Of a stretch of DNA of 64,000 nt, positions 1,647-50,317 are shown piece after piece (positions within the stretch are counted from its first letter, which is position 1; every line of letters begins with the position of its first letter). The stretch lies in assembly GCA_015486055.1 (NCBI GenBank), contig WFSJ01000018.1, positions 34,179 to 98,178 of the forward strand. The letters run 5' to 3'. The stretch comes from Acidobacteriota bacterium (GTDB lineage Bacteria; Acidobacteriota; Aminicenantia; S016-38). Under the pieces are notes generated by a model. The model made no database searches. It had not been told where the DNA came from and was given only the letters and a program-made list of their open reading frames with translations. The translations under genes and the position numbers were made by a program.

Positions 1647-1670
1647 GGAGGGGAGCAATCCCCTCCTTTA
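1647..1670 (+). terminator. Rho-independent terminator-like hairpin (GGAGGGGA-gcaa-TCCCCTCC) followed by TTTATGT. It lies between the convergent comEA-like and lptFG genes
   Basis: Perfect 8-bp GC-rich stem with a 4-nt loop, read directly. The T-tract is short and overlaps the lptFG stop codon. Confidence 0.45.
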
Positions 1671-13536: not shown

Positions 13537-13594
13537 TTATCCCTCCGTTTGTCTTTATTTTAATGCATTTTCTCTAATTATATAAGGAAATTTC

Positions 13595-15076: not shown

Positions 15077-15101
15077 GTTTTCTCCTTCAGTTTAGACTGT
15101 G

Positions 15102-28582: not shown

Positions 28583-28780
28583 ATAAACATTCTAAATAAA
28601 AGTTTCTCCTGAGGTCAAAAGAATGTTATTTAGCACTGAGGTGAAAAGAAAGTCCGAAGGTTCTGAGAACTCCATCCATAAATTTAATTTTCTGTTCCTA
28701 TAATAAAATAAGATTGAAAAAAGAGGAAAATTTTGTTAAGCTGTGCTTGTGAAAGTTAGAACTTTAACAAGAGGAAAGAA

Positions 28781-29404
28781 TTGATTCCTGAAGCAACAAT
28801 AAGAAGGTTAAGCATTTATCTTCGCTGCTTGCGCTATTCTTTAGCACAGGGAGAGTACATTGTTCAATCTATGGACATTGCAAGAAAATGTAGAGTATCC
28901 AGCTCCTTAATGCGGAAGGACCTTTCCTATTTTGGGGGATTTGGTATAAAGGGCAGGGGTTATGATACGAAAAAGCTCATTGAGGCAATAGAAAGAATAA
29001 TAGGAATACACATTAAAATAAAGTTAATAATAGTAGGGATGGGAAATCTTGGAAGGGCCCTCATCAGGCACTTAAAAGAGATTTCGTACTTCAAGATAAT
29101 AGGTGCCTTTGACAGGGACGAAAGAAAAGTGGGAGGAAAAATAGAGGATGTAGAAGTTTTTCATGAGTCCCGATTACCATCTTTCTTGAGAGAGAGAAAG
29201 CCTGAGATAGCTCTACTTGCAATACCTCCTGAATCCCTTCAGGAAGTTGTGAATCTCCTTGGAGAAGGTGAAATAAAGGGGATTTTAAGTTTCGCCCTTT
29301 CTCCTGTAAAAATTCCAGTGGGGGTGGAGATAAGCTTTGTGGAAATTGCCTCAGAGATAGAATATCTTTCTTACAAGATAAATAAAAGGGGGAGAGAGAA
29401 ATGA
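28781..29404 (+). CDS. rex: Redox-sensing transcriptional repressor Rex
   Basis: MIPEATIRRLSIYLRCL winged-helix N-terminus plus Rossmann IIVGMGNLGRAL. TTG start. The stop overlaps the mrpE ATG (ATGA). Confidence 0.8.
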   Translation: MIPEATIRRLSIYLRCLRYSLAQGEYIVQSMDIARKCRVSSSLMRKDLSYFGGFGIKGRGYDTKKLIEAIERIIGIHIKIKLIIVGMGNLGRALIRHLKEISYFKIIGAFDRDERKVGGKIEDVEVFHESRLPSFLRERKPEIALLAIPPESLQEVVNLLGEGEIKGILSFALSPVKIPVGVEISFVEIASEIEYLSYKINKRGREK

Positions 29405-29886
29405 ATGTTGTAGTATCAACTATAGTTCTCTTTGTAATCTGGGTGATAATGACCCAGAGCTTTGATCCTCAGGAGATGTCCGTTGGCCTTGTGGTTGCTG
29501 CCATAATTAGCCTCATGGCTCCAGGGGTTGCAGGGCCAGAGCCCAGGAAATGGCTTCAGCCAAAAAGGTACATTTACGCATTCATTTACATTTTTTATTT
29601 TCTCTATGCAATGGTTAAAGCCAATATTGATGTTGCTCTTAGAGTTATAAACCCGAAACTTCCCATCAATCCAGGTATTGTGAAGGTGAAGACAAAATTG
29701 AAAACAAATGCAGGGAAACTTGCTCTTGCCAATTCTATTACTCTCACTCCAGGAACGCTTTCTGTAGATATAAAGGGAAAATACTTATACATTCACTGGA
29801 TAGATGTGAAGAAGCCTGACATAGAAGGTGCAAGTCAAGAGATAGTCAGGGGATTTGAAAGATTTTTGGAGGTGATCTTTGAATAG
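29401..29886 (+). CDS. Mrp/Mnh-type cation:proton antiporter subunit E
   Basis: 161 aa MnhE-like (VLFVIWVIMTQSF, LTPGTLSVDI). Confidence 0.75.
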   Translation: MNVVVSTIVLFVIWVIMTQSFDPQEMSVGLVVAAIISLMAPGVAGPEPRKWLQPKRYIYAFIYIFYFLYAMVKANIDVALRVINPKLPINPGIVKVKTKLKTNAGKLALANSITLTPGTLSVDIKGKYLYIHWIDVKKPDIEGASQEIVRGFERFLEVIFE

Positions 29887-30136
29887 CCTTCTAATTATAG
29901 TTTTTGCCTTGGTAAGTCTGGCAACGATTTTGTCAGTTGTGAGAATATTTGTGGGTCCTACAATCTCGGACAGAGCTGTTGGCCTTGATACAGCCACCAC
30001 CATAACTACAGCAATGATAGTTCTCTTCTCTCAGATATTTCATAGGGGAATATTCTTGGATGTTGCTCTGGTTTACGCTGTTCTCGCCTTTTTAGGAGTA
30101 ATTGCCCTTGCTCGTTATCTTGAAGGAGGTGTCTAA
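29879..30136 (+). CDS. Mrp antiporter subunit F
   Basis: 85 aa with three TM, MnhF-like (GPTISDRAVGLDTATTI). Confidence 0.7.
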   Translation: MNSLLIIVFALVSLATILSVVRIFVGPTISDRAVGLDTATTITTAMIVLFSQIFHRGIFLDVALVYAVLAFLGVIALARYLEGGV

Positions 30137-30489
30137 TGATTTACAAAATTTTAGGGGAAGTTTTAATCTTCATCGGCGCTCTCTTTCTTTTCCTTGCAGG
30201 ACTTGGAATTGTAAGAATGCCAGATGTTTACAACAGGATGCAGACAGGGACAAAGGCAACAACTCTTGGTGCCATCTCTCTTATCATGGGGGTAGGGATC
30301 TATCATCCCCAGTGGATATTTAAAACAGGGATAATATCCCTTTTCATACTTCTTACAAATCCTGTCTCTTCTCATTCTCTTGCCAGGGCTTCCCACAACT
30401 CTGGAATTCCCCTTACCAAGGGTTCTGTCCTTGATAGATATGCAGAGGATAAGAAAAAGGGATTTAAGGAGGAAGAAAATGATTCTTGA
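30136..30489 (+). CDS. Mrp antiporter subunit G
   Basis: MnhG-like (GIVRMPDVYNRMQTGTKATTLG). GGAGG SD. Confidence 0.75.
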   Translation: MIYKILGEVLIFIGALFLFLAGLGIVRMPDVYNRMQTGTKATTLGAISLIMGVGIYHPQWIFKTGIISLFILLTNPVSSHSLARASHNSGIPLTKGSVLDRYAEDKKKGFKEEENDS

Positions 30490-30724
30490 ATACTTTATGA
30501 TTCTTCTTTTGCTTTTGATGGTTGGACTGGCAATTTATGCTGTTGAAACTAAGGACCTTCTTGCCTCTGTTATTGCCGCTGGGTTTGTTTCCCTTGTGGC
30601 TTCCATTGTTTATCTTTATCTTCAAGCTCCAGATGTGGCGATGACAGAAGCAGCTATTGGAGCCGGTCTTACCACTCTTATTTTCATAATAGCCATCAGA
30701 AAAACAGAGAGGCGTGAAAGATGA
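30479..30724 (+). CDS. Small MrpB-N-terminal-like membrane subunit (DUF4040-like), 81 aa
   Basis: Internal ATG at 30479 preceded by AAGGAGG. Two TM helices. Overlaps the mrpG 3' end. Confidence 0.5.
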   Translation: MILEYFMILLLLLMVGLAIYAVETKDLLASVIAAGFVSLVASIVYLYLQAPDVAMTEAAIGAGLTTLIFIIAIRKTERRER

Positions 30725-31458
30725 GAAAATGGATAGCCATAACATTCCTTTTAATTCTGGGATTCTTTATGTTGAGGATCGCAGGGGCATTTCCCTTTGG
30801 GGAGAATACATGGAAGGTTGCAAGGCAATATGTGAAGAATGTAACAGAAGAAAAATGGTGGGTTGCTGAGCATTATGTGGATAAGGGAATAAAAGAAAAC
30901 AGAGGCTCCAATCTAGTAACATCCATAGTTGTTAATTACAGAGGATTTGACACTCTTGGAGAAGTTACAGTCCTTTTCCTTGCCGCTACTGCCCTTGCTT
31001 TTTTACTTTCCTCCTGTACTTGCTTTAGAAAATATGAAAGGATAGAGGCAAGTCTTATCCTGAAAACGGCATCAGATACCCTTTATCCCCTTTTAATTCT
31101 TTTCGGAGCCTACATATTTATTCACGGGCACCTGACCCCTGGGGGAGGATTTCAGGGAGGAACTGTCATTGCGTCAGCTGTCATGCTTATGCTTCTTGCA
31201 CATTTTTCCTTCCATCCTAACCACGAAGTCCTCTCCGTCACCGAGGGTCTCGCTGGTATCGTATTTGCCGCCATTGGCCTTGCGGGGCTTATATGGGGCA
31301 GAAGCTTCCTTGCAAACAACATACTTCCATTGGGACATTGGAACAGACTATTTTCTGCCGGAGTAATTCCTCTGATATATATAGCCATAGGCTTTAAAGT
31401 AGGTTCCGAGCTTTCTGGCCTTATAACAGATATGTTTAAGGTAACAAAGGAGGAATAA
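30721..31458 (+). CDS. Mrp antiporter subunit B (MnhB domain)
   Basis: NLVTSIVVNYRGFDTLGEVTVLF is the MnhB signature. Confidence 0.7.
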   Translation: MRKWIAITFLLILGFFMLRIAGAFPFGENTWKVARQYVKNVTEEKWWVAEHYVDKGIKENRGSNLVTSIVVNYRGFDTLGEVTVLFLAATALAFLLSSCTCFRKYERIEASLILKTASDTLYPLLILFGAYIFIHGHLTPGGGFQGGTVIASAVMLMLLAHFSFHPNHEVLSVTEGLAGIVFAAIGLAGLIWGRSFLANNILPLGHWNRLFSAGVIPLIYIAIGFKVGSELSGLITDMFKVTKEE

Positions 31459-31808
31459 TGTTTTTCTTTGCTTCTTCAATTGCCTTAATTCTGATAGGTC
31501 TTTATGCAGTTCTTGTAAAGAGGAACATAATGAAAATGGTTATAGGGCTTTCCATAATGGACACAGGAGTGAATATCTTGATCATATCCTTGGGATTCAT
31601 AAGGGGAAAGACAGCACCCATCATAAACGCAAAAGACCTTCTTGTGAGAACTTCCTCAAAGGTTGTTGACCCTGTGCCTCAGGCCCTTGTTCTTACCGCG
31701 ATAGTTATAGGGGTGGCGGTTACCGCTGCAGCCCTTTCAATAGTTATGCTCATGTATAGCAAGAAGAAGAGCCTTGAAATAGAAGAATATAAGGAGCTGA
31801 AATGGTAA
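31458..31808 (+). CDS. Mrp antiporter subunit C (NuoK-like)
   Basis: 116 aa with three TM, NuoK/MnhC-like. Confidence 0.7.
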   Translation: MFFFASSIALILIGLYAVLVKRNIMKMVIGLSIMDTGVNILIISLGFIRGKTAPIINAKDLLVRTSSKVVDPVPQALVLTAIVIGVAVTAAALSIVMLMYSKKKSLEIEEYKELKW

Positions 31809-34800
31809 ATCCAATCTTGATAATAGCAATAACCTTAGCTTCTGCCTTTTTTATAGGGATACTTCAGGTTTACAGTAAACTCTGGGCGAAAGTTTTTTTC
31901 TTTCTCGTCCTTATATTTGATTTTGTAGCTGCTGGAGCCAACTTCTACGGTTTTCTTTCAGGGAAAATAACCTCTCCGATACTGGTAAAAATTGGGGGTT
32001 TTCCTCCTCCCATTGGAATAAACCTTTTTGTAGGAAAGGCCGAAGCTGCCATGGGATTCCTGATCTTTACCATTACTCTTCTTGGAGCCTATCATTTGGC
32101 AAGAAGAGGGATTCCTGAGCCTCAGGGTAAGGCAATGGTCCTTTTTCTCCTTCTCTCCCTTGGAGCAGCAGGGATAACTTTCACAGGTGATTTCTTCAAC
32201 CTATTTGTTTTCATTGAGATAACATCCATAGCGGCATATGGGCTTGTGGCTTCAGCAAAAACAGAAAAGTCCTTGGAAGCAGCATTTAAATATATGGTTA
32301 TAGGTTCTATAAGCTCCACCTTTATTCTTCTCGGTGTGGTTTTCCTTTATAAAGCCACAGGAAGCCTTAACATGCTTGACATTGCAAAAAAAGTGAAGAC
32401 TTTTCCTCTGACCCCTGTTTTCTCTCTCATTTCCCTTGTGTTTTTTGCAGGTCTTCTCATTGAACTGGAGGTTTTCCCCATAAATGGGTGGGCCCTTGAT
32501 GTCTATCAGGGGGCAGACCCTGTGGTTGTTGCAGTCCTTACGGGTGCTGCAGTGAAAGCTTTTTATTTGATATTTATAAAAGCAGGGGGATATCTTGCCC
32601 TCCCTTCTTTTTTCCAGCTTTCCCTTATATTTGGAGGAGGCACTTATCTGGTGAGCCAATTCCTTGCTTGGAGACAGAGGGATGTCCGAAGGCTTCTTGG
32701 ATATTCCTCAGTTGCTCAATTGGGGCTTTTAATCCTTTCAGCGGGCTTTTTCCTCAATAACTCTCTTCCTTCAAGCTCAAGGCATTTCATAGCTCTTGCG
32801 ATAGTTCTTTTCGTATTCAATCATTCCTTCGCCAAATCTTCCCTTTTTCTTTTAGTAGATAATGTGGAAACCAGGGAAATGGAAGGATGGAAGGGGATAT
32901 TGAAGAGGAATCCTCTTTTCAAGTTTATATTCTCCACCTCTGTTTTTTCCATAACAGGGGTTCCACCGTTCCCAGGATTTTGGGCAAAGCTTCTTCTAAT
33001 TTTTGCGATCCCAAAAGAGTATGCTTGGGTTGTAGGCCTTATCCTTCTTGGTGCTGTGGCTGAGATCGTTTATTATTTTAGATTTTACAGAATAGCATCG
33101 GATGGGGAGGGGGAGAAAGTAAAAAAGAACTTGGCTTCACCCCTTGCAGCCTCCCTGATTTTAATTACAGGAGGCGGGGTTGCGTGGTCCATGTTTTCAG
33201 GATATATGGGGATTATGTTTAATTCTCTTATAATTGTGTTCCTTATGGTCGCTGCAGCTATTTACATTTTTGGTTTCTCAAAGCCTCTTCAGTGGACCGC
33301 TTCCCTCGTTCTTCTTGGCTATGGAATTTACAGATTTCTTCCTTCAATGAAGGCAAATCTCCACGGATTTTTCCTTGCCCTTGTGTTTTTCGGAGGAGCG
33401 ATACTTCTTTTTGCCACATATCCCACATCAAAGAGGCTTTCGTGGAGTTTTTATCCTGCATATCTTGTTGTGATTTTTTCTCTTGTTGGAATAGCCCTTT
33501 CAACCAGCTGGTTGAATCTTTTCGTTTACTGGGAACTTATGAGCTGGTCTTCCTTCCTTCTTGTTAATATGGGAAAGAAGGCAAAAAGGGCTGCATGGAT
33601 TTATGCTATCTTTAGTTCAGCAGGGGCTTATTCGATGCTAGCAGGAATATATCTCCTGCCAAAGCTTTCAATAAGCAAGATCGGGGTAACTGGAGTGCTT
33701 ATTCCCGTTCTTCTAATCACAGGCTTCCTTGTTAAAATGGCAACCTCTCCCCTTCACATTTGGGCAAGGGATGCATATGGGGAAAGCCCTGATGAATTTA
33801 CTCCTCTTCTTTCTGGAATAATGTCAAAAATTGGGGTATTCGGATCTGCTCTTGTTTTTCTCTATGTAATAGCAAATATTTCTTCCGGTCCTGCTCTCAG
33901 GTATGGTCTTGCATGGCTTGGAGTTCTTACTGCTTTCTTTATGACCCTTCTTGCAGTTTTTCAGGAAGATCTAAAGAAACTCCTTGCTTATTCCTCTGTA
34001 GGCCAGGTAGGCTACATTCTTCTCGGCCTTGCCATTGCTACACCCCTTGGATGGAATGCTGCCCTTTACCACACTGTAGATCACTTCATTTTTAAGGGGC
34101 TTCTTTTTGTGGCTGCTGCAGGGATAATTTATCGTGTAGGAACTTCCTATCTTCCCCATATGGGAGGGCTTATAAGAAGGATGCCGCTTACTTTCCTTGC
34201 AGTGCTTATTGCGATAATTTCTCTTGCAGGGATTCCACCAATGGCTGGTTTTGCAGGGAAATGGCTTCTCTATTCTGCGCTTATTGAGAAACAATGGGTA
34301 TTTATTACGGTGGTTGCATTTTTAGCTTCCACGCTTGCCTTCCTTTATTGTTTCAAGATTCTCCATACTGTATTTCTCGGTCAGCTTCAGGACGAGAACA
34401 AAAATGCAAGAGAGGTCCCTTTTCCCATTGCTGCTGCCGAAACAATCCTTCTTGTTGCCACCGTAGCAATTGGAGCTTTTCCAAGGCTTCTTCTCGATCC
34501 CATAAACAAAGTGTTAAACAAGATTCCAGGGATGAAAAATTCCGGCTTGTTCTACGAAAAGACGCTTGGGGCAGTTTCGAAGCTCGGCCACTGGAATGCC
34601 CTTTTCCTTATGGTATTTACAGTGGGTTCTTTCATCTTTGCCCTTATATTCTTTGCCCTAACGTCAGCGAGGGTGAGGGAGGTTAAACAACTTGATGTGG
34701 GCTATGCGGGGGAAGTTCCCCGTCAAGTAGAGGATCTTCACTTTGGCTATGACCTTTATGCCCATTTCAGAAGAACGGTTAAATGGCTGATTTATCCTCT

Positions 34801-34951
34801 GGTTTCTAAAATATGGAAGGGAATTTATGAATGGACAGGGACCTTTGCCGAGGTTCTCAGGAGATTTTATACAGGAAATATAAATACATACGCAGCATAT
34901 GTGATTCTCATTTCAATATTAATTCTTCACTTCTTTGCTGGGGGGAAATGA
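31802..34951 (+). CDS. Fused double MrpD/NuoN/NuoM-like antiporter subunit (two proton-pumping modules, 1049 aa)
   Basis: First module has NuoN-like FNLFVFIEITSIAAYGL. Second module (from about residue 500) has WELMSWSSFLLV, as in the NuoL/M/N WExxG/SxxSYxLI block. At least 28 TM. Confidence 0.75.
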   Translation: MVNPILIIAITLASAFFIGILQVYSKLWAKVFFFLVLIFDFVAAGANFYGFLSGKITSPILVKIGGFPPPIGINLFVGKAEAAMGFLIFTITLLGAYHLARRGIPEPQGKAMVLFLLLSLGAAGITFTGDFFNLFVFIEITSIAAYGLVASAKTEKSLEAAFKYMVIGSISSTFILLGVVFLYKATGSLNMLDIAKKVKTFPLTPVFSLISLVFFAGLLIELEVFPINGWALDVYQGADPVVVAVLTGAAVKAFYLIFIKAGGYLALPSFFQLSLIFGGGTYLVSQFLAWRQRDVRRLLGYSSVAQLGLLILSAGFFLNNSLPSSSRHFIALAIVLFVFNHSFAKSSLFLLVDNVETREMEGWKGILKRNPLFKFIFSTSVFSITGVPPFPGFWAKLLLIFAIPKEYAWVVGLILLGAVAEIVYYFRFYRIASDGEGEKVKKNLASPLAASLILITGGGVAWSMFSGYMGIMFNSLIIVFLMVAAAIYIFGFSKPLQWTASLVLLGYGIYRFLPSMKANLHGFFLALVFFGGAILLFATYPTSKRLSWSFYPAYLVVIFSLVGIALSTSWLNLFVYWELMSWSSFLLVNMGKKAKRAAWIYAIFSSAGAYSMLAGIYLLPKLSISKIGVTGVLIPVLLITGFLVKMATSPLHIWARDAYGESPDEFTPLLSGIMSKIGVFGSALVFLYVIANISSGPALRYGLAWLGVLTAFFMTLLAVFQEDLKKLLAYSSVGQVGYILLGLAIATPLGWNAALYHTVDHFIFKGLLFVAAAGIIYRVGTSYLPHMGGLIRRMPLTFLAVLIAIISLAGIPPMAGFAGKWLLYSALIEKQWVFITVVAFLASTLAFLYCFKILHTVFLGQLQDENKNAREVPFPIAAAETILLVATVAIGAFPRLLLDPINKVLNKIPGMKNSGLFYEKTLGAVSKLGHWNALFLMVFTVGSFIFALIFFALTSARVREVKQLDVGYAGEVPRQVEDLHFGYDLYAHFRRTVKWLIYPLVSKIWKGIYEWTGTFAEVLRRFYTGNINTYAAYVILISILILHFFAGGK

Positions 34952-35859
34952 TGGGTGTCAAGATATTCTATGCTTTTATAGCTTTGATAGGGGGCATTGC
35001 TTATGGTCTCTTGCTCGGGGGGATTTCAAGGAAAATAACAGCAAGAATGCAAAACAGGAGAGGGCCGACCGTATTCCAGAACTTCATAGATGTGTGGAAA
35101 TTATTCAGAAAGAAGACAGCCATTTCACATGGGGTGATGTTCTACCTTGCTCCCATATTCAGGTTGCTTGGCGGAGCAGGGACTTTCCTTCTTGTCCCCA
35201 TCGTTGTAGGGAACTTTTATCTGAGCAATTTTTCCTTCGGTGGAGATCTTATAGTGATAATGTATTTCATGGTGATGGGATGCCTCGGAATGGCACTTGG
35301 AGCAGCGGAGAGCGGCCATCCTCATGCTCCTATCGGTGTTACAAGGGGGCTTGCACAAATGGCGGGTCAAGAGCTTCCCTTTATAATTTCAGTGGTTGTT
35401 CTAATGATTGTTGATAAAACCACCTCTGTAGAAGGAATAGTAATGGCGCAGCAGGGCGGGATACTTCACTGGCACATATTCACCTATCCTTTTGCAGCGA
35501 TTGCTGCTTTCATAAGCCTTTTAGGAATGATGACTTCCTATCCGTTCGAAATTGTGATGGCACCCCAAGAAATCGCCATTGGTCCTCCCACAGAGTTTAG
35601 CTCAACTTTCCTATCCTACATGTTTTCAGGGAGAAGTGTATTTGCTGTGGCAAAATATGTTCTCTTCATGGACCTTTTTCTTGGTGGTGCAACGAACCTC
35701 CTCTGGGCCTTTTTAAAAACCTTTCTGATTTTCCTGTGGCCATTGTTCATTACGGATGTTTTTCCTCGTTTCAAACTTGAGCAGTCAGTTTCCTTCTTCT
35801 GGACATGGCCAACACTTATAGGGCTGATAGATTTACTAAGAATATACATAGTGAGGTAA
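34948..35859 (+). CDS. NuoH/HycD/MbhM-like membrane subunit
   Basis: RKITARMQNRRGPTVFQNFIDVWKLFRK matches the NuoH R-x-x-x-x-QxRxGP motif. 4-nt overlap with the upstream gene. Confidence 0.8.
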   Translation: MMGVKIFYAFIALIGGIAYGLLLGGISRKITARMQNRRGPTVFQNFIDVWKLFRKKTAISHGVMFYLAPIFRLLGGAGTFLLVPIVVGNFYLSNFSFGGDLIVIMYFMVMGCLGMALGAAESGHPHAPIGVTRGLAQMAGQELPFIISVVVLMIVDKTTSVEGIVMAQQGGILHWHIFTYPFAAIAAFISLLGMMTSYPFEIVMAPQEIAIGPPTEFSSTFLSYMFSGRSVFAVAKYVLFMDLFLGGATNLLWAFLKTFLIFLWPLFITDVFPRFKLEQSVSFFWTWPTLIGLIDLLRIYIVR

Positions 35860-35861
35860 CT

Positions 35862-36434
35862 ATGGGAAAAGATAAATTTCTAAATGAAAAGCCTGAAAAA
35901 TTGACATATTCAGGTGTTTTTAAGAAGATTGACAACTGGGCAAGGGCAAGGTCCCTGTGGGTTGTCGCTTATGGAACAGGGTGCGGTGCCATTGAGCTTC
36001 GCCCTACCTTTACCTCAAGATTTGATGCGGAAAGGTTTGGGATGCGTATGGTTGGCACCCCCCGTCAGGCAGATGTCATCGTTGTAAGCGGTTATCTTAC
36101 TGTGAAAACCTTAAAGAGGGTAATAAGGGTTTACGAACAAATGCAGTCCCCGAAATATGTTGTTGCCCTTGGAGCCTGTCCTATAAACGGAGGTATGTAT
36201 TACGACTCCTACAATGCTATCAACCGCCTTGACCTTTATCTTCCAGTGGATATATGGGTAACAGGTTGCATGCCAAGACCGGAAGCCATTCTCGCAGGTT
36301 TCAAGAGGCTTCAGGAACTCATAGATGACGGAAAAGCAGACGGATGGAAGAAGTACATAGAGGCCCTTGATTGGTATAGAGGAAATCAGAGAAAAATCAT
36401 AAAGAACTGGCGAATGCCTAATTATAACTGGTGA
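35862..36434 (+). CDS. NuoB/hydrogenase small-subunit-like protein
   Basis: VAYGTGCGAIE, GACPINGG and TGCMPRPE N2-cluster-type motifs. The first motif carries a single Cys rather than CC. Confidence 0.8.
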   Translation: MGKDKFLNEKPEKLTYSGVFKKIDNWARARSLWVVAYGTGCGAIELRPTFTSRFDAERFGMRMVGTPRQADVIVVSGYLTVKTLKRVIRVYEQMQSPKYVVALGACPINGGMYYDSYNAINRLDLYLPVDIWVTGCMPRPEAILAGFKRLQELIDDGKADGWKKYIEALDWYRGNQRKIIKNWRMPNYNW

Positions 36435-36442
36435 GGTTGATA

Positions 36443-36973
36443 ATGAATATTATTGAGAGATTAAAGGAAAGATTTGAAGTTCTCATCGCAGAGAAAAAAA
36501 GAAAGGACCTCTTGATAATAGAGACAACAAAGAAGGGACTTATACCCATGCTTTTTTACCTTAAGGAATACGAAGGATACAGAACCCTCACCTTGATATC
36601 CTGTGTGGATTGGATAGAGGATAAAAAATTTCAGATGAGCTATATCCTATGGAACTTTAGAATGAAAGCGAATATCATCGTGAAGTTCATGCTTGATAGG
36701 GAAAACCCCGATTTTGAAACCGTATATAAATTGTGGCCCCAAGCAGAAGCCTACGAAAGAGAAATTCACGAAATGTTCGGGGTGAATTTTGAGGGCAATC
36801 CAACACAGAACGAGGAGCTCATCCTTGAGGATTGGGATAATATTCCTCCAATGAGGAGAGATTTTGATACTCTGAAATATTCAATGGAGAAGTTCGGGGA
36901 GAGGGAACCCAAGAGCCGAATAAATATAAGGAAGGAAATCTCTGAACAATATGACGAATGGAGAAGAAAATGA
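36443..36973 (+). CDS. NuoC (30-kDa)-like subunit
   Basis: TLTLISCVDW...ILWNF... and ...EREIHEMFGVNFEGNP are typical of NuoC/MbhK. Confidence 0.75.
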   Translation: MNIIERLKERFEVLIAEKKRKDLLIIETTKKGLIPMLFYLKEYEGYRTLTLISCVDWIEDKKFQMSYILWNFRMKANIIVKFMLDRENPDFETVYKLWPQAEAYEREIHEMFGVNFEGNPTQNEELILEDWDNIPPMRRDFDTLKYSMEKFGEREPKSRINIRKEISEQYDEWRRK

Positions 36974-38073
36974 GCACGGAAGAAGTTAGACTTTTCATAG
37001 GGCCTCAGCATCCCGGAGTTACCGGGAACATGAGTATAGAAGTTCTTCTTAAAGGGGATACAATCACATGGGCTAAAACCCACATAGGATATCTCCACAG
37101 GGCCTTTGAAAAACTTATGGAGCGGAGGATTTTCATAAAGAGCTTTCCCTTAGTTTGCAGAATATGTGTTCCAGAATCTGACACGAACGAGGAGAATTTA
37201 GCAAGGGGTCTTGAGGAACTTGCAGATATAGAAATTCCGGAAAGAGCAAAATGGATAAGGACATTGGTGCTTGAGCTTTCAAGACTTCAAATGTTTATAA
37301 TGTGGTATGGGGGGATAGCAGGCTCCATGGGACTTTCTACTCCTGTTCAGTGGGGGATAGGAGACAGGGATTACATCCTTGACCTTTTTGAAGAGCTTAC
37401 AGGGGGAAGGGTTTATCACATATATATTCTTCCAGGAGGTGTGAGGAAGGACCTTCCAGAGGGTTTTGAAGAAAGGGTTTTAAAGACAATGGATCTAATA
37501 GAGAGAAGGCTTCCTGAATACGATGAGCTCATAATGGATAATGCTGTGGAGCAGAAGAGATTAAAAGGACTTGCTCCTATCCCAAAGGAATGGGTAGAAG
37601 AAATGGGAATAACGGGTCCAGTGGCAAGGGCATGTGGTTTTCCCTACGATGTGAGGAAGAACAGTCCCTATGAGGCTTACGACAAATTGGATTTTGATGT
37701 GATAACAGAAGATGGATGCGATGTTTGGTCAATGCTACTTGTGAGGAGGAGAGAAATTGATCTTAGTATAAAACTTATAAGAGAAATAGTAAGTAAAATG
37801 CCCAAAGGAGAGTTCCTCACAAGGCTTCCTAATGTCCTTTACTGGGAGATACCAAAAGGAGAAACCTATGTAAAATCGGAGGCAACAAGAGGTGAATTTG
37901 GCTATTACATATTCACCGATGGTTCAGGAAAGCCGAGAAGAGTTCATGTAAAGGGTCCTTCTTTCATACACGGGATAACTCTTCTTGAGAGGCTTCTTGT
38001 TGGGCAGAACATAGCGGATGTAGCACCAATTTTGGTGGCTCTTCAAATTTGTCCACCAGAGATGGAAAGATAG
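36958..38073 (+). CDS. NuoD/[NiFe]-hydrogenase large-subunit-like protein with incomplete Ni-Fe ligand set
   Basis: LFIGPQHPGVTGNMSIEV...HIGYLHRAFEK matches NuoD/large subunit. An N-terminal CxxC is present (LVCRICVPE). The C-terminus has QICPPE, one Cys, in place of DPCxxC. Confidence 0.8.
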   Translation: MEKKMSTEEVRLFIGPQHPGVTGNMSIEVLLKGDTITWAKTHIGYLHRAFEKLMERRIFIKSFPLVCRICVPESDTNEENLARGLEELADIEIPERAKWIRTLVLELSRLQMFIMWYGGIAGSMGLSTPVQWGIGDRDYILDLFEELTGGRVYHIYILPGGVRKDLPEGFEERVLKTMDLIERRLPEYDELIMDNAVEQKRLKGLAPIPKEWVEEMGITGPVARACGFPYDVRKNSPYEAYDKLDFDVITEDGCDVWSMLLVRRREIDLSIKLIREIVSKMPKGEFLTRLPNVLYWEIPKGETYVKSEATRGEFGYYIFTDGSGKPRRVHVKGPSFIHGITLLERLLVGQNIADVAPILVALQICPPEMER

Positions 38074-38083
38074 GAGGGAAAAA

Positions 38084-39856
38084 ATGGGACTTAAGGAAGT
38101 TCTAAAACCTCTGGGGGCCTGGAGACAGATAGCTAGGAAACCCCACACAATTCTTGTTCCCAAGGTACATAGAGAGGCGGCCGAAAGATACAGAGGATTC
38201 CATGTTAATGATCTTGGAAAGTGCATAGGGTGTGGAACCTGTGCTGCAGTTTGTCCCAATGAGGCTATAGATATGGTAAAGATTGAAGGAATAGAAGGAA
38301 AGAAGGGAGATTCAGGATTCCGCCCCAGAATTGATTATGGAAGGTGTTGCTGGTGCGGTCTTTGTGTTGATTCCTGTCCCACAACATCCTTAAGAATGAC
38401 TAACGAGTATATCTGGATAAGGGAAGCCCCTGACGATTTTGTTTATATCCCAGGATATGACATAAAGGGATTTGAGCAGAAGGAAAAGGGATATAGAAAG
38501 GATAAGGAGCACAGCTTTACAGATTATCACAGGGTTCCCATGAGAGAAAAGGAACCAGAGGAAAGGCTCCAGACCTTTGCGGAAGTAGTGCTTGGTTATA
38601 CTGAAGAGGAAGCAAGAAAAGAGGCGGACCGTTGCATTGGCTGCGGGCTCTGTATATCAGGGTGCCCTGATAGAATGCACATCCCAGATTACATAAGGGC
38701 TGTAGCCTCAGGGGAATATGAGCGCTCTGTTAACATAATGTATGAGAATAATCCCTTTGCTGAGCTTTGCGGCAAGGTGTGCACGAGAAGATGCGAGAGC
38801 TATTGCTCCCTGGGGAATGAGGGAGATCCTGTTGCCATAAGATGGCTTAAGAGGTTCGCTACGGAGAGGTTTTCAGATCTTAAAGAAGTCATAAGAGCTA
38901 GGAAACAGGAATTAAAGGATAAATCCGTGGGGATAATAGGGGCGGGACCCGGAGGTCTCACTGCGGCCTATTACCTTGCCCTCAGAGGTTATAAGGTGAC
39001 AGTTTACGAGGCAATGCCAGAGGCAGGGGGAATGACTATGGCAGGGATACCCAAATACAGGTTTCCCCTTCCATCCCTTAAGAAGCAGGTGGAATTTATC
39101 CTGTCCCAGGGCGTCGAACTAAAAACCAATTACTTTGTTGACCCTGAGAAATTCAGAAATCTCATGGAAATCCACGATGCCATTTATCTTGGAGTCGGTC
39201 TTTTAAAACCATGGAAACTTGGGGTCCCGGGTGAAGACCATCCCAATGTTATATATGCTATTGATTACCTCAGGAAAGTGAACTTTAATGAGTCAGTAAA
39301 GATTGGCAATGAAGTTGTTGTAATTGGCGGTGGAGATGTTGCTATAGATGCAGCAAGAGTTTCTCGTCGATTCGGAGCAAAGGTTACCATTGGTTACAGA
39401 AGGAGAAAAGTAGATATGCCTGCAGACCGTGAGGAAATTGAGGGAGCAGAGGAAGAAGGGGTTGAGATCTGGGAGAAAATAATCCCGTTAAGAGTGGAAG
39501 ATGCGCCCGAGGGAAGAGTGAAACTCGTCTATGGAAAGGCCCGCATGGTAGACCAGGGACCTGGAAGAAGACCAAAGCCTGTTTTGATAGAAGGAGAAGA
39601 GTATGAAATTTTGGTTGACAGGATAATTGTTGCTATAGGACAGCAGGCAGATCTCACCTTTTTGCCCCAGGAGTTCGCAGAGAAGATGGAAGTAGAAAGA
39701 GGCCGCATAAAGGTGAATGAAAGGCAGATGACCTCCATCTCCGGAATTTTCGCAGGAGGAGATGTGGCAAACAGGGTTGCAGATGCCATATCAGCCATTG
39801 CAGATGGTTTACGCGCAGTGAAAGGCATAGAGCTTTATTTCCAGGGAAAATCCTGA
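38084..39856 (+). CDS. Fusion protein: NuoI-like 2x[4Fe-4S] ferredoxin domain plus GltD/NfnB/SudA-like NAD(P)H-dependent flavoprotein domain
   Basis: CIGCGTCAAVCP and CCWCGLCVDSCP are NuoI-like. CIGCGLCISGCP is a third ferredoxin motif. LCGKVCTRRCESYC matches the GltD N-terminal cluster. IIGAGPGGLTAAYYL...EAGG and VVVIGGGDVAIDAAR are the FAD and NAD(P) folds. Confidence 0.8.
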   Translation: MGLKEVLKPLGAWRQIARKPHTILVPKVHREAAERYRGFHVNDLGKCIGCGTCAAVCPNEAIDMVKIEGIEGKKGDSGFRPRIDYGRCCWCGLCVDSCPTTSLRMTNEYIWIREAPDDFVYIPGYDIKGFEQKEKGYRKDKEHSFTDYHRVPMREKEPEERLQTFAEVVLGYTEEEARKEADRCIGCGLCISGCPDRMHIPDYIRAVASGEYERSVNIMYENNPFAELCGKVCTRRCESYCSLGNEGDPVAIRWLKRFATERFSDLKEVIRARKQELKDKSVGIIGAGPGGLTAAYYLALRGYKVTVYEAMPEAGGMTMAGIPKYRFPLPSLKKQVEFILSQGVELKTNYFVDPEKFRNLMEIHDAIYLGVGLLKPWKLGVPGEDHPNVIYAIDYLRKVNFNESVKIGNEVVVIGGGDVAIDAARVSRRFGAKVTIGYRRRKVDMPADREEIEGAEEEGVEIWEKIIPLRVEDAPEGRVKLVYGKARMVDQGPGRRPKPVLIEGEEYEILVDRIIVAIGQQADLTFLPQEFAEKMEVERGRIKVNERQMTSISGIFAGGDVANRVADAISAIADGLRAVKGIELYFQGKS

Positions 39857-40280: not shown

Positions 40281-40443
40281 GAAGCTATATTTTGATTCTC
40301 CTCCTTTTTTCTGTCCCGGCTTCCGTGGACCTTGCACTTATAAGAAGGGATAAAAGAAAGGACAGGATGAAATACGGGATAAAATCCTTTCTGTGGATGG
40401 TCGTAGCCTCAATACTCTTCGGTTGGTTAATGTATATATTAAA

Positions 40444-42357: not shown

Positions 42358-42795
42358 TCAATTTAATCTCTTTATCTCTATTTTTCTTTCCCCGTTTTCC
42401 TCTTCCTTTATTTTTACTTTTATAATTCTGGTTGACCATGGGAGTCCCTCGGCTTTTTCTCCCCACTCAACTGCCACAATTCCCATACCGAGAAAATCCT
42501 CAACACCGAGAAGCTCAATCTCCTTTTTATCTTCAACCCTGTAAAGGTCAATATGAAAAAGGAGCCCTTTTCCTGAATAGATATTCATTATTGTGAATGT
42601 AGGCGAGCTGACAAGTGATTCGTTTATACCCATCCCCCTTGCGAGTCCCTTCACGAAGACAGTCTTTCCTGAGGCTAAACTTCCATATAGAAGAATTACC
42701 TCATCTCCCCTGAGTCCTTCAGCAAGCGCTTCTGCTATTTCTTTTGTTTCTTCCTCTGATTTTGATATAAAACTATTCTTCATATTTAAAAGCAT
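42358..42795 (-). CDS. tsaE: tRNA t6A37 biosynthesis ATPase TsaE (YjeE)
   Basis: P-loop GSLASGKTVFVKGL, SPTFTIMNIY, VEWGE are TsaE hallmarks. Confidence 0.8.
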   Translation of the reverse strand: MLLNMKNSFISKSEEETKEIAEALAEGLRGDEVILLYGSLASGKTVFVKGLARGMGINESLVSSPTFTIMNIYSGKGLLFHIDLYRVEDKKEIELLGVEDFLGMGIVAVEWGEKAEGLPWSTRIIKVKIKEEENGERKIEIKRLN

Positions 42796-50295: not shown

Positions 50296-50317
50296 CTCCA
50301 GTGCTATTATATCAAAT

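What the first reader, a model, noticed from the sequence alone, without database searches (positions are those of the whole stretch)
28781..39856. Rex-led 13-gene operon encoding an Mrp-antiporter/complex-I-like (Mbx/MBS/Ehr-type) energy-converting complex wired to NAD(P)H
Seen in sequence: rex (TTG start) ends in an ATGA overlap with mrpE, so Rex is translationally coupled to the genes it would regulate. It is followed, with 1-11-nt overlaps or single-digit gaps, by mrpE, mrpF, mrpG, a small mrpB', mrpB, mrpC, a fused double MrpD, then NuoH-, NuoB-, NuoC- and NuoD-like genes and a NuoI::GltD fusion. No NuoE/F/G NADH-dehydrogenase module is present. Established: Mrp subunits, a duplicated MrpD (H and H') and an M-J-K-L-N order of hydrogenase-like subunits define the archaeal Mbh/Mbx(MBS) respiratory complexes and their Ehr relatives, which use ferredoxin. 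Rex represses NADH-producing or NADH-consuming fermentative and respiratory genes in response to NADH/NAD+. Inference: the terminal subunit carries its own GltD/NfnB-type NAD(P)H-binding flavoprotein module, so this appears to be an ion-translocating NAD(P)H-linked oxidoreductase of the group-4-hydrogenase lineage that has lost H2 chemistry. The acceptor is unknown (polysulfide, quinone or a low-potential carrier). It is autoregulated by a co-transcribed Rex. I do not know of a characterised complex with exactly this arrangement
Basis: partly seen in the sequence, partly recalled or inferred. Interest (0 to 1): 0.8.

Follow-up and report, generated by a model that had tools for sequence, protein, structure and literature searches.

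The report
Rex-led bacterial MBS/Mbx complex with NADPH module
This is an intact operon in a Candidatus Aminicenantes bacterium for a membrane-bound, complex-I-like ion pump of the archaeal sulfur-reducing MBS/Mbx type. Its last subunit is fused to an NADPH-binding flavoprotein and its first gene is the NADH sensor Rex. This layout is already recorded in Thermotoga and other bacteria, but no enzyme of this form has been studied biochemically.

Summary
Window 28781-39856 (+) holds rex followed by 12 tightly packed genes in the order of the Pyrococcus furiosus mbs (mbx) operon: A-B-C-D-E-G-H/H'(fused)-M-J-K-L-N.

- Every subunit tested has its best solved-structure match in MBS (PDB 6U8Y).
- The NuoD-like subunit keeps only two of the four Ni-Fe cysteines, so this is not a hydrogenase. 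It also lacks the complex-I quinone ligands.
- The NuoB-like subunit keeps the three-cysteine proximal-cluster motif of MBS.
- The last gene is a real, widely conserved fusion of MbsN/NuoI to an NfnB/GltD-type module. The module has 2x[4Fe-4S], FAD and an invariant YRR motif that indicates NADPH.
- The fusion occurs in Thermotogota, Bacteroidota, Calditrichota-like, Spirochaetota, WOR-3 and Acidobacteriota. It was noted for Thermotoga and proteobacteria in 2015, and a full-length NCBIfam model exists.
- Rex as the first gene is specific to an Aminicenantes-type clade. In Thermosipho, rex lies divergently next to the same operon.
- A 24-bp palindrome with Rex-type arms precedes rex in three diverged lineages.

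The most likely function is an NADPH-fed, ion-translocating sulfane-sulfur reductase that is derepressed when NADH is high. This function is inferred, not shown. I classify it as a new member of a known but biochemically uncharacterised kind, of moderate interest.

The parts
28747..28770 (.). 24-bp palindrome TTGTGAAAGTTAGAACTTTAACAA, the candidate Rex operator, ending 10 nt before the rex start codon
   Evidence: It is unique in the window (0.02 expected). It is conserved in L002, L003 and L005 while the flanks diverge. The same palindrome lies next to rex in four diverged rex-mbx contigs from metagenomes. The arms match the Rex half-site, but the spacer is 10 bp rather than 4 (consensus quoted in PMC6391272).
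28781..29404 (+). rex, redox-sensing (NADH/NAD+) transcriptional repressor, 207 aa, TTG start
   Evidence: Pfam Put_DNA-bind_N + CoA_binding. NCBIfam NF003995 at 199 bits against a cutoff of 126. TTG is the only start that keeps the winged helix. It has the R45-K46 recognition pair and a GMGNLG Rossmann motif (sequence, compared with T. maritima Rex residues in PMC8836258).
29401..29886 (+). mbsA (MrpE/MnhE-like), 161 aa
   Evidence: Pfam MNHE, E=1.8e-42. ATGA overlap with rex.
29879..30136 (+). mbsB (MrpF-like), 85 aa
   Evidence: Pfam MrpF_PhaF, E=1e-18.
30136..30489 (+). mbsC (MrpG-like), 117 aa
   Evidence: Pfam PhaG_MnhG_YufB, E=2e-25.
30479..30724 (+). mbsD (MbhD family), 81 aa. The likely start is the ATG at 30479, not the TTG at 30380.
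   Evidence: Pfam MbhD, E=3.8e-22. An AGGAGG site precedes the ATG at 30479. The homologues' gene lengths agree.
30721..31458 (+). mbsE (MbhE + MnhB domains in one protein, as in MBS), 245 aa
   Evidence: Pfam MbhE + MnhB. Best PDB hit 6u8y_E, E=4.7e-50.
31458..31808 (+). mbsG (MrpC/NuoK-like), 116 aa
   Evidence: Pfam Oxidored_q2, E=4.8e-25.
31802..34951 (+). Fused mbsH-mbsH' (two MrpD/NuoN/M-like antiporter modules), 1049 aa
   Evidence: The N-terminal half matches 6u8y_H (E=1.4e-66). The C-terminal half matches 6u8y_X (MbsH', E=1.1e-71), including the C-terminal helix-HL region. The fusion is contiguous in L002-L005, L009 and L011. The two genes are separate in L010, L012, L014 and L016.
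34948..35859 (+). mbsM (NuoH-like membrane anchor), 303 aa
   Evidence: Pfam NADHdh. Best PDB hit 6u8y_M, E=1.2e-35.
35862..36434 (+). mbsJ (NuoB-like, carries the proximal [4Fe-4S] cluster), 190 aa
   Evidence: Best PDB hit 6u8y_J, E=3.5e-66, aligned without gaps. The C28/C93/C123 equivalents are kept and C25 is Gly.
36431..36973 (+). mbsK (NuoC-like), 180 aa, GTG start
   Evidence: Pfam Complex1_30kDa. Best PDB hit 6u8y_K.
36958..38073 (+). mbsL (NuoD / [NiFe] large-subunit-like, without a Ni-Fe site), 371 aa
   Evidence: Best PDB hit 6u8y_L, E=6.9e-94, against MbhL at 2.4e-39. Only C70 and C365 remain (MbsL C85 and C385 equivalents). The Nqo4 H38 and Y87 equivalents are T22 and V71.
38084..39856 (+). 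mbsN::nfnB/gltD fusion, 590 aa. Residues ~1-137 are NuoI/MbsN-like (2x[4Fe-4S]). Residues ~150-590 are NfnB/GltD-like (2x[4Fe-4S], FAD, NADPH).
   Evidence: Pfam Fer4/Fer4_7 + Fer4_20 + Pyr_redox_2. PDB hits 6u8y_N (residues 6-137), 4ylf_B and 5jca_L (150-588). Eight invariant Cys and invariant Y438-R439-R440. AF2 model pLDDT 85.5 with best fold match 5jca_L, TM 0.88. NCBIfam PRK13984 aligns end to end.

Best explanation
[quoted passage not shown] The ferredoxin-facing subunit MbsN has acquired a C-terminal NfnB/GltD-type iron-sulfur flavoprotein.

Proposed mechanism:
1. NADPH donates a hydride to the FAD of the C-terminal module.
2. Electrons pass singly through the module's two [4Fe-4S] clusters, then the two clusters of the NuoI-like part, to the proximal [4Fe-4S] cluster in MbsJ.
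3. That cluster is held by three cysteines and reduces a sulfane-sulfur compound (polysulfide) in the chamber formed by MbsJ, MbsL, MbsM and MbsH'.
4. The chemistry at that interface drives H+ pumping by the fused MbsH-H' modules and Na+/H+ exchange by the Mrp-derived distal module.

The GltD-type module therefore plays the role that NuoEFG plays in complex I and FpoF plays in Fpo. Rex, the first gene of the operon, represses the operon from a palindrome just upstream when NADH/NAD+ is low and releases it when NADH accumulates. The complex would thus be made as an energy-conserving sink for surplus reducing equivalents, with an Nfn-type transhydrogenase plausibly converting NADH plus reduced ferredoxin into the NADPH it uses.

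Shown here: gene content and order, family membership at sequence level, cofactor-binding motifs, the fusion, and conservation of the Rex linkage and of the palindrome.
Inferred: direction of electron flow, NADPH as the physiological donor, sulfane sulfur as the acceptor, ion translocation, and Rex binding to this palindrome.
For: - Gene order A-B-C-D-E-G-H/H'-M-J-K-L-N is that of P. furiosus mbs (subunit roles from PMC7684303).
- Every subunit compared with the PDB hits 6U8Y best: L 6.9e-94, J 3.5e-66, H' 1.1e-71, H 1.4e-66, E 4.7e-50, M 1.2e-35, K 9.7e-16, N part 1.3e-23.
- MbsJ-like subunit: the three cluster cysteines are invariant, there is no indel relative to MbsJ, and the non-ligand C25 is Gly. 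This fits the three-Cys catalytic cluster described for MBS.
- MbsL-like subunit: two of four Ni-Fe cysteines remain.
- Fusion subunit: eight invariant Cys in the Fer4_20 part, two CxxCxxCxxxCP motifs in the NuoI part, and an invariant YRR motif. In T. maritima NfnB, YRR binds the 2'-phosphate of NADPH and it predicts NADP(H) use in DsrL (PMC7596348).
- The AF2 model is confident and superposes on NfnL.
- There is no NfnA-like partner in the operon, so a single linear electron path is the simplest reading.
- The T. maritima MBX operon is induced by S0 (PMC9431562).
- Rex linkage: rex is the first gene in the window, L002, L003, L005, L009 and L011. It is also adjacent to mrpE in L019, L027 and L031 and present beside the palindrome on the short contig L032. 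It is divergent and adjacent in Thermosipho, with two near-canonical Rex boxes in that intergenic region.
- The palindrome is unique in the window and conserved in front of rex in diverged lineages.
Against: - No biochemical data exist for any fused-type complex. The literature on bacterial Mbx assumes ferredoxin as donor, with either NADP+ or sulfur as acceptor.
- NADPH to polysulfide offers a much smaller potential drop than ferredoxin to polysulfide. Pumping by three or more ion modules would be thermodynamically tight unless in-vivo ratios help.
- Rex senses NADH, not NADPH, so the regulatory logic needs an extra transhydrogenase step.
- The palindrome has a 10-bp spacer rather than the canonical 4-bp one. 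One Rex dimer cannot bind it in the known way, and L009/L011 carry a different palindrome.
- 27 of the 33 metagenome contigs with the palindrome show no rex nearby.
- The Glu ligand of the NfnB proximal cluster (E117) is an invariant Lys here, so cluster properties may differ from NfnB.
- I could not obtain model coordinates to measure cluster-to-cluster distances across the fusion.
Confidence: 0.5

Rival explanations
1. Ferredoxin:NADP+ oxidoreductase, the classical 'Mbx' model. Reduced ferredoxin docks on the NuoI-like part. Electrons run outward through the GltD-type clusters to FAD and reduce NADP+. The membrane arm conserves the energy, making an Rnf-like function.
For: - This is the function assigned to the gltD-bearing mbx-like operons by Degli Esposti 2015 and to Mesotoga Mbx.
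- In NfnB the same two [4Fe-4S] clusters are the ferredoxin-facing branch.
- NfnAB-like genes lie directly downstream of the operon in L015, and a second GltD-like gene lies downstream in L006. This suggests traffic among the Fd, NADH and NADPH pools.
Against: - An electron path from Fd through MbsN to the flavin never visits the proximal cluster or the MbsJ/L/M chamber. That is where redox chemistry is coupled to ion movement in MBS, MBH and complex I, so such a reaction would be uncoupled.
- Yet the chamber-forming subunits and the three-Cys cluster motif are strictly conserved.
- P. furiosus Mbx was re-assigned from this function to sulfane reduction.
- Rex derepression at high NADH fits a sink for reductant better than a maker of more NADPH.
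Confidence: 0.22
2. Flavin-based electron bifurcation or confurcation on a membrane pump. The NfnB-type FAD splits the NADPH electron pair between a low-potential branch (ferredoxin, at the NuoI-type clusters) and a high-potential branch (the membrane-arm acceptor). Alternatively it merges Fd and a second donor.
For: - The flavoprotein module is closest in sequence and fold to the bifurcating subunits NfnB/NfnL.
- Related GltD-type modules occur in the bifurcating NfnABC/StnABC complexes.
Against: - Only one Fe-S path leaves the flavin in this subunit. No NfnA-type [2Fe-2S]/FAD partner is encoded in the operon or window.
- GltD and DPD have the same fold and do not bifurcate.
- The Glu ligand of the NfnB proximal cluster (E117) is replaced by an invariant Lys.
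Confidence: 0.07
3. NADPH:quinone oxidoreductase, a complex-I analogue with a different N-module that reduces menaquinone.
For: - The overall complex-I-like architecture.
- NCBIfam scores the D-like subunit above the cutoff of a NuoD model, NF004739 (395.6 bits against 360).
- Menaquinone-type biosynthesis genes (UbiA, UbiE-like) lie a few kb downstream in relative L009.
Against: - The two quinone-headgroup ligands of Nqo4 (His38, Tyr87) align to Thr22 and Val71.
- The NuoB-like subunit lacks the tandem-Cys motif of complex I and has the MBS-type loop.
- The PDB similarity ranking puts MBS well above any complex I.
Confidence: 0.05
4. A genuine group-4 [NiFe] hydrogenase (Mbh-type) that evolves H2.
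For: Homology of the J, K, L and N subunits to hydrogenase subunits (6cfw hits).
Against: - The L1 and L2 CxxC motifs are both incomplete. One Cys of each pair is missing, as in MbsL.
- MbhL scores far below MbsL (138 against 318 bits).
Confidence: 0.01

Closest known systems
Pyrococcus furiosus MBS (formerly Mbx), membrane-bound sulfane-sulfur reductase, PDB 6U8Y
   Same: - Identical subunit set and gene order (A, B, C, D, E, G, H, H', M, J, K, L, N).
- Best solved-structure match for every subunit tested.
- MbsE-type fusion of the MbhE and MnhB domains.
- Three-Cys proximal-cluster motif with the same loop length.
- Two vestigial Ni-Fe cysteines in the L subunit.
   Different: - H and H' are fused into one 1049-aa protein.
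- MbsN carries a C-terminal NfnB/GltD-type NADPH flavoprotein of about 440 aa, absent from the archaeal enzyme, which takes electrons from ferredoxin.
- MbsJ C25 is Gly.
- The host is bacterial.
- A Rex gene heads the operon, whereas SurR is the regulator in Thermococcales (title of ref. 41, seen).
Thermotogota MBX operon (T. maritima 13-subunit MBX; Thermosipho melanesiensis locus L012)
   Same: - The same operon, including the MbsN::GltD fusion (616 aa in Thermosipho).
- A rex gene immediately adjacent.
- The 'mbx-like operon with gltD-related flavoprotein' is described in PMC4758237.
- T. maritima mbxA is induced by S0 and thiosulfate (PMC9431562).
   Different: - In Thermosipho, rex is divergently transcribed rather than the first cistron.
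- H and H' are separate genes.
- A rubrerythrin-like gene ends the operon.
- The Rex boxes there are near-canonical 18-mers.
NfnB/NfnL (NADH-dependent ferredoxin:NADP+ oxidoreductase large subunit; 4YLF_B, 5JCA_L) and glutamate synthase small subunit GltD
   Same: - Fold match (TM 0.88 to 5jca_L).
- Two [4Fe-4S] sites, FAD and NAD(P)H Rossmann folds.
- The YRR NADPH motif.
   Different: - No NfnA or GltB partner.
- Fused behind a NuoI-type dicluster domain and encoded in a membrane-complex operon.
- The Glu ligand of the NfnB proximal cluster aligns to an invariant Lys.
Respiratory complex I (NuoEFG N-module) and archaeal Fpo (FpoF)
   Same: The same design principle. A soluble dehydrogenase module feeds a NuoI-NuoB cluster chain on an Mrp-derived pump.
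   Different: The input module is unrelated (GltD/NfnB type with FAD, rather than NuoF with FMN or FpoF). The acceptor site is of the MBS type, not the quinone or phenazine type.
Rex regulons of Gram-positive bacteria and Thermotogales
   Same: A Rex orthologue with a conserved recognition helix. The operator arms are TTGTGAA/TTCACAA. The target is a redox-balancing enzyme. Autoregulation is implied.
   Different: The operator is 24 bp (10-bp spacer) rather than 18 bp. Rex is co-transcribed as the first gene of its presumed target operon.

Membership tests
MBS/Mbx membrane-bound sulfane reductase | Thirteen-subunit set in the order A-B-C-D-E-G-H-H'-M-J-K-L-N (Mrp module plus the M-J-K-L-N hydrogenase-like module) | tested here: met
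   All are present in this order, with H and H' fused into one gene.
MBS/Mbx membrane-bound sulfane reductase | L subunit retains only two of the four Ni-Fe cysteines (MbsL C85 and C385) | tested here: met
   C70 (RIC) and C365 (CPPEMER) align to C85 and C385, and the other two positions are not Cys. An extra Cys67 is out of register.
MBS/Mbx membrane-bound sulfane reductase | Proximal [4Fe-4S] cluster of the J subunit held by three Cys on a loop shorter than in MBH (C28, C93, C123; C25 not a ligand) | tested here: met
   The alignment to MbsJ is gap-free, the three ligands are invariant in eight sequences, and the C25 position is Gly. This is sequence level only; the coordination itself cannot be seen.
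MBS/Mbx membrane-bound sulfane reductase | Reduced ferredoxin as electron donor | not testable with these tools
   The added NADPH module argues for a different or additional donor.
MBS/Mbx membrane-bound sulfane reductase | Polysulfide / dimethyl trisulfide reductase activity coupled to ion translocation | not testable with these tools
   The only indirect evidence is S0 induction of the T. maritima homologue (PMC9431562).
Group 4 [NiFe] hydrogenase (Mbh/Ech) | Intact L1 (RxCGxC) and L2 (DPCxxC) cysteine pairs in the large subunit | tested here: not met
   One Cys of each pair is missing.
Respiratory complex I (NADH:quinone oxidoreductase) | Quinone ligands His38 and Tyr87 (T. thermophilus Nqo4 numbering), and tandem Cys in NuoB | tested here: not met
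   Thr22 and Val71 at these positions; a single Cys in the GTGCG motif.
Respiratory complex I (NADH:quinone oxidoreductase) | NuoE/F/G NADH-dehydrogenase module | tested here: not met
   None in the operon or among the ORFs scanned across the 64-kb window (the longer ones). The rest of the genome was not seen.
NfnB/GltD-type iron-sulfur flavoprotein | N-terminal Fer4_20 domain with two [4Fe-4S] sites, plus FAD and NAD(P)H Rossmann domains | tested here: met
NfnB/GltD-type iron-sulfur flavoprotein | YRR motif that accommodates the 2'-phosphate of NADPH | tested here: met
   Y438-R439-R440 are invariant in 36 sequences and align to NfnB Y310-R311-R312.
Nfn transhydrogenase (bifurcating) | NfnA/NfnS partner with [2Fe-2S] and a second FAD | tested here: not met
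   No such gene in the operon or among the window ORFs scanned. NfnA-like genes occur next to the operon only in L015.
Rex redox-sensing repressor | Winged-helix N-domain plus NAD(H) Rossmann domain, scoring above the curated family cutoff | tested here: met
   (NF003995, 199 bits against 126).
Rex redox-sensing repressor | Canonical 18-bp operator TTGTGAANNNNTTCACAA near the regulated promoter | tested here: not met
   no match with fewer than 2 mismatches in the window, and none with 3 or fewer mismatches in the rex promoter region. A 24-bp palindrome with the same arms is present instead. Near-canonical boxes do occur in the Thermosipho locus.

The most novel reading that the evidence does not exclude
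The GltD/NfnB-type module is an independent solution to wiring pyridine nucleotides into a complex-I-type pump, and it retains the bifurcating chemistry of its Nfn relatives. On this reading the complex would be the first membrane-bound, ion-translocating flavin-based bifurcating or confurcating enzyme of the complex-I family. It would couple NADPH, ferredoxin and a sulfur acceptor in one machine. It would be controlled by a Rex clade that uses an unusual 24-bp operator.
Probability: 0.07. Interest if true: 0.85.

Novelty: new member of a known kind. Interest (0 to 1): 0.38.

Why it matters
Bacterial Mbx/MBS-like complexes are widespread in anaerobes, across at least six phylum-level lineages in this analysis. 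Metabolic reconstructions routinely annotate them as ferredoxin-dependent, as either Fd:NADP+ oxidoreductases or sulfur reductases.

The fused NADPH flavoprotein is conserved across these lineages and is hardly mentioned in the recent MBS literature. It implies that the bacterial enzymes have a different electron input from the archaeal enzyme whose structure is known. If NADPH is the donor, these complexes are a third, independent type of nucleotide-input module on the complex-I scaffold, after NuoEFG and FpoF. Energy budgets drawn for Thermotogota, Aminicenantes, Bacteroidota and other fermenters would then need revision.

The Rex linkage, seen in two phyla, gives a concrete testable prediction: expression should rise when NADH/NAD+ is high. 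The palindrome suggests a Rex subgroup with a non-canonical operator geometry.

The locus itself adds no new kind of system. It is a clean example of a known but uncharacterised one.

Tried and rejected
- **Frameshift artefact for the two fusions.** Rejected. The 1049-aa H-H' gene is contiguous in seven independent assemblies. The 590-aa fusion has more than 100 full-length homologues and at least 12 clusters at 50% identity of 580-620 aa.
- **True hydrogenase.** Rejected on the cysteine motifs.
- **Quinone reductase.** Disfavoured on the Nqo4 ligand positions.
- **Canonical Rex box near rex.** None found.
- **Promoter and terminator consensus scans.** Counts were no higher than in shuffled sequence, so they are uninformative.
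- **Downstream DUF6677 gene and upstream divergent FAD oxidoreductase (soxB/ThiO-like) as part of the unit.** Rejected. Neither is found in the relatives' flanks as far as they extend, which is only about 740 nt upstream, and a 55-nt gap with a promoter-like site precedes DUF6677.
- **Rfam and tRNA scans.** Only one tRNA-Ala, elsewhere in the window.
- **Literature.** No paper links Aminicenantes with Mbx. Ravcheev 2012 (the Rex regulon paper) and Wu 2018 (MBS biochemistry) are not held. I therefore could not check whether mbx is listed in the Thermotogales Rex regulon.
- **Model coordinates.** Not exposed, so cluster-to-cluster distances in the fusion subunit could not be measured.
- **Metagenome scan with the palindrome.** It returned many contigs without rex, next to small unknown ORFs, a TonB receptor/AhpC pair and a NuoE/HydC-like gene. 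These were left unexplained.

Full report
**1. Observation**

The + strand of window 28781-39856 carries 13 contiguous ORFs. Pfam and NCBIfam assign them as follows:
- Rex: Put_DNA-bind_N + CoA_binding; NF003995 at 199 bits against a cutoff of 126.
- MnhE, MrpF, MrpG, MbhD, MbhE+MnhB, and NuoK/MrpC.
- A 1049-aa protein with two Proton_antipo_M modules.
- NuoH, NuoB, NuoC and NuoD.
- A 590-aa protein with a NuoI-type dicluster domain followed by Fer4_20 and Pyr_redox_2.

The rex stop and the next start overlap as ATGA. With the most plausible starts, the junctions are overlaps of 1-16 nt or gaps of 2 and 10 nt, and most genes have a GGAGG-like ribosome-binding site.

The unit ends at 39856. The DUF6677 gene and aspS downstream, and recA and a FAD oxidoreductase upstream, were not found next to the operon in relatives. 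The relatives' upstream flanks reach only about 740 nt. The rest of the window holds housekeeping genes and no other energy-metabolism genes.

**2. Source organism and reality of the fusions**

The closest loci in species-representative genomes are Candidatus Aminicenantes MAGs, at 87-89% identity for the last gene. In L002, L003 and L005 all 13 genes recur in the same order, including a contiguous 1049-aa H-H' gene. More distant relatives (60-62% identity; L009, L011) keep both the rex-first layout and the H-H' fusion.

The 590-aa fusion protein has thousands of homologues. The top 120 are all 577-619 aa long with 96-100% query coverage. A search with only the N-terminal 160 residues finds at least a dozen clusters at 50% identity of 580-620 aa. 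Neither fusion is an assembly artefact.

**3. Family assignment**

The gene order equals that of the P. furiosus mbs (mbx) operon. Every subunit I compared with solved structures matches an MBS chain (6U8Y) best:

| Subunit | E-value | Comparison |
|---|---|---|
| L | 6.9e-94 | Nqo4 2.5e-68; MbhL 2.4e-39 |
| J | 3.5e-66 | |
| H' | 1.1e-71 | |
| H | 1.4e-66 | |
| E | 4.7e-50 | |
| M | 1.2e-35 | |
| K | 9.7e-16 | |
| N-terminal part of the last gene | 1.3e-23 | |

The MBS structure paper (PMC7684303) gives two diagnostic features.
- MbsL keeps two of the four Ni-Fe cysteines (C85, C385). Here C70 and C365 align to them and the other two are absent.
- The proximal [4Fe-4S] cluster of MbsJ is bound by only C28, C93 and C123, on a loop three residues shorter than in MBH. 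Here the alignment to MbsJ is gap-free, the three ligands are invariant in eight bacterial and archaeal sequences, and the non-ligand C25 is Gly.

The quinone ligands of complex I (Nqo4 His38, Tyr87) align to Thr22 and Val71. The complex is therefore of the MBS type. It is not a hydrogenase and not a canonical quinone reductase.

**4. The added module**

Residues ~150-590 of the last subunit match NfnB/NfnL, related NfnABC/StnABC subunits and GltD (E 1e-58 to 1e-86). An AlphaFold2 model (pLDDT 85.5, pTM 0.81) superposes on P. furiosus NfnL with a target-normalised TM-score of 0.88 and an rmsd of 2.3 Å.

In an alignment of 36 family members, several features are invariant:
- the eight cysteines of the Fer4_20 part;
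- the two CxxCxxCxxxCP motifs of the NuoI part;
- both dinucleotide-binding glycine motifs;
- Y438-R439-R440.

This YRR motif binds the 2'-phosphate of NADPH in T. maritima NfnB and predicts NADP(H) use in DsrL enzymes (PMC7596348). NADPH is therefore the likely nucleotide. One difference from NfnB is that the Glu ligand of its proximal cluster (E117) aligns to an invariant Lys. No NfnA-type partner is encoded nearby.

**5. Distribution and prior description**

The same operon with the fused last gene occurs in several lineages:
- a Flavobacteriaceae MAG and a Bacteroidota MAG (L006, L007);
- a hydrothermal-vent contig whose protein NCBI labels Caldithrix abyssi (L010);
- an Acidobacteria MAG (L013);
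- a Spirochaetaceae MAG (L015);
- WOR-3 (L016);
- the cultured Thermotogota species Thermosipho melanesiensis (L012).

[quoted passage not shown] He interpreted it as the NAD(P)+ site and noted a terminal rubrerythrin gene, which I also see in L012 and L013. NCBIfam holds a full-length model of the fused protein (PRK13984/NF010590). It aligns end to end at 632 bits, below its equivalog cutoff.

T. maritima MBX is described as a 13-subunit MBS homologue induced by S0 and thiosulfate (PMC9431562). Recent MBS papers treat bacterial homologues as ferredoxin-dependent and do not discuss the fusion. I found no biochemical study of a fused-type enzyme. I also found no paper on this complex in Aminicenantes.

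**6. The Rex link**

Rex heads the operon only in the Aminicenantes-type clade: the window, L002, L003, L005, L009 and L011. It also does so in a second, much more divergent group found in metagenomes (L019, L027, L031, L032). There Rex is 34-38% identical and MrpE about 50% identical.

In Thermosipho, a rex gene lies divergently and immediately upstream of mbxA. Two 2-mismatch matches to the canonical Rex box flank the intergenic region, and they are the only such matches in that 21.8-kb locus. Other lineages have an ArsR-type gene (L013), a MarR gene (L016) or no adjacent regulator (L010, L014, L015). Rex control is therefore recurrent but not universal.

In the window, a 24-bp palindrome (TTGTGAAAGTTAGAACTTTAACAA, 28747-28770) ends 10 nt before the rex start.
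- It is unique in the window, with 0.02 matches expected.
- It is conserved in L002, L003 and L005 while the flanks diverge.
- A near-perfect version (TTGTGAAAGTTATAACTTTCACAA) sits beside rex in the divergent metagenome group.
- Its arms are the Rex half-site, and the Rex recognition residues are conserved here (R45-K46; compare T. maritima R48-K49).
- Its spacer is 10 bp, against 4 bp in the consensus TTGTGAANNNNTTCACAA.

L009 and L011 carry a different palindrome that abuts the rex ATG. Binding of Rex to these sites is inferred, and the geometry is unexplained. Of the 33 metagenome contigs with the palindrome, 27 show no rex nearby. One of these has the palindrome upstream of a NuoE/HydC-like gene, a typical kind of Rex target. 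Others lie next to small unknown ORFs.

**7. Mechanism**

In every structurally known member of this superfamily, redox chemistry at the proximal cluster and its chamber drives the membrane arm. Accessory soluble modules (NuoEFG, FpoF) are electron inputs; this rests on established knowledge. The chamber-forming subunits and the MBS-type cluster motif are conserved here. Only one Fe-S path leaves the flavin.

The simplest model is therefore NADPH -> FAD -> 2x[4Fe-4S] -> 2x[4Fe-4S] (NuoI part) -> proximal [4Fe-4S] -> sulfane sulfur, coupled to H+/Na+ translocation. Rex derepression at high NADH fits a sink for reductant. Because the module looks NADPH-specific, an Nfn-type transhydrogenase would be needed to connect NADH and ferredoxin to it. 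NfnAB-like genes directly follow the operon in L015, and a second GltD-like gene follows it in L006.

The main rival is the older Fd:NADP+ oxidoreductase model. It is weakened because that electron path would bypass the coupling site. Bifurcation, quinone reduction and hydrogenase activity are less likely, for the reasons given under the rival explanations. Donor, acceptor, direction of flow and ion coupling are all inferred.

**8. Verdict**

The arrangement is not new: it is a member of the bacterial 'mbx-like with gltD' class, recorded since 2015 and present in cultured Thermotogota.

What this locus adds:
- rex as a translationally overlapped first cistron;
- an H-H' gene fusion;
- a non-canonical palindrome with Rex-type arms.

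These are clade-level variations. Interest is moderate. The class as a whole is biochemically uncharacterised and is probably mis-annotated as ferredoxin-dependent in many reconstructions.

Noticed in passing
window 12037-17315 (- strand): Three consecutive sulfatase-family genes (499, 493 and 737 aa; Pfam Sulfatase). The largest has an SGSH_C domain. This suggests use of sulfated glycans.
   Followed up: no
window 1668-3938 (- strand): A single 756-aa ORF with two LptF_LptG matches. It appears to be a fused LptF-LptG LPS-export permease.
   Followed up: no
window 42773-44353 (- strand): A bifunctional NAD(P)HX repair enzyme (YjeF_N + Carb_kinase), 2.9 kb downstream of the operon. Probably coincidental.
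   Followed up: no
window 3979-5274 (+) and 40393-42126 (+): Two class-II Asp/Asn-type tRNA synthetase genes. One is short (431 aa, no GAD domain). The other is a bacterial-type AspRS with a GAD domain (577 aa).
   Followed up: no
window 50234-52517, 53728-55044 and 56891-58615 (+): Several sizeable ORFs (432, 333, 438 and 574 aa). The last three had no Pfam match at E<=1e-5, and the 432-aa ORF was not scanned. They sit around an arginine/polyamine gene group (amino-acid kinase, OTCase, spermidine synthase, Orn/Arg decarboxylase).
   Followed up: partly
L015 12112-14540; L006 12678-14135: In a Spirochaetaceae MAG, an NfnA-like gene (DHODB_Fe-S_bind) and an NfnB-like gene lie directly downstream of the fused-type mbx operon. 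A Flavobacteriaceae MAG has a second GltD-like gene downstream. This hints at a functional link with transhydrogenation.
   Followed up: partly
L013 801-1148 and 11824-12276; L016 456-836; L012 11853-12356: Other lineages place a different regulator at the head of the same operon: an ArsR-type HTH in an Acidobacteria MAG and a divergent MarR in WOR-3. The operon often ends with a rubrerythrin-like gene.
   Followed up: partly
L017-L049 (metagenome contigs); e.g. L020 5891-5914, L040 1395-1418, L018 and L047 (two copies each): The 24-bp palindrome TTGTGAAAGTTNNAACTTTCACAA occurs in 27 further contigs without a nearby rex, many of low GC. One lies upstream of a NuoE/HydC-like gene, one between a TonB-receptor gene and an AhpC gene, and many lie next to small unknown ORFs. 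What binds it there is unknown.
   Followed up: partly
window 28781-29404 compared with L002, L003 and L005: Rex is much less conserved (about 60% identity) than the structural genes of the same operon (68-91%) among close Aminicenantes relatives. The window also lacks about 13 bp of the promoter region present in those relatives.
   Followed up: no
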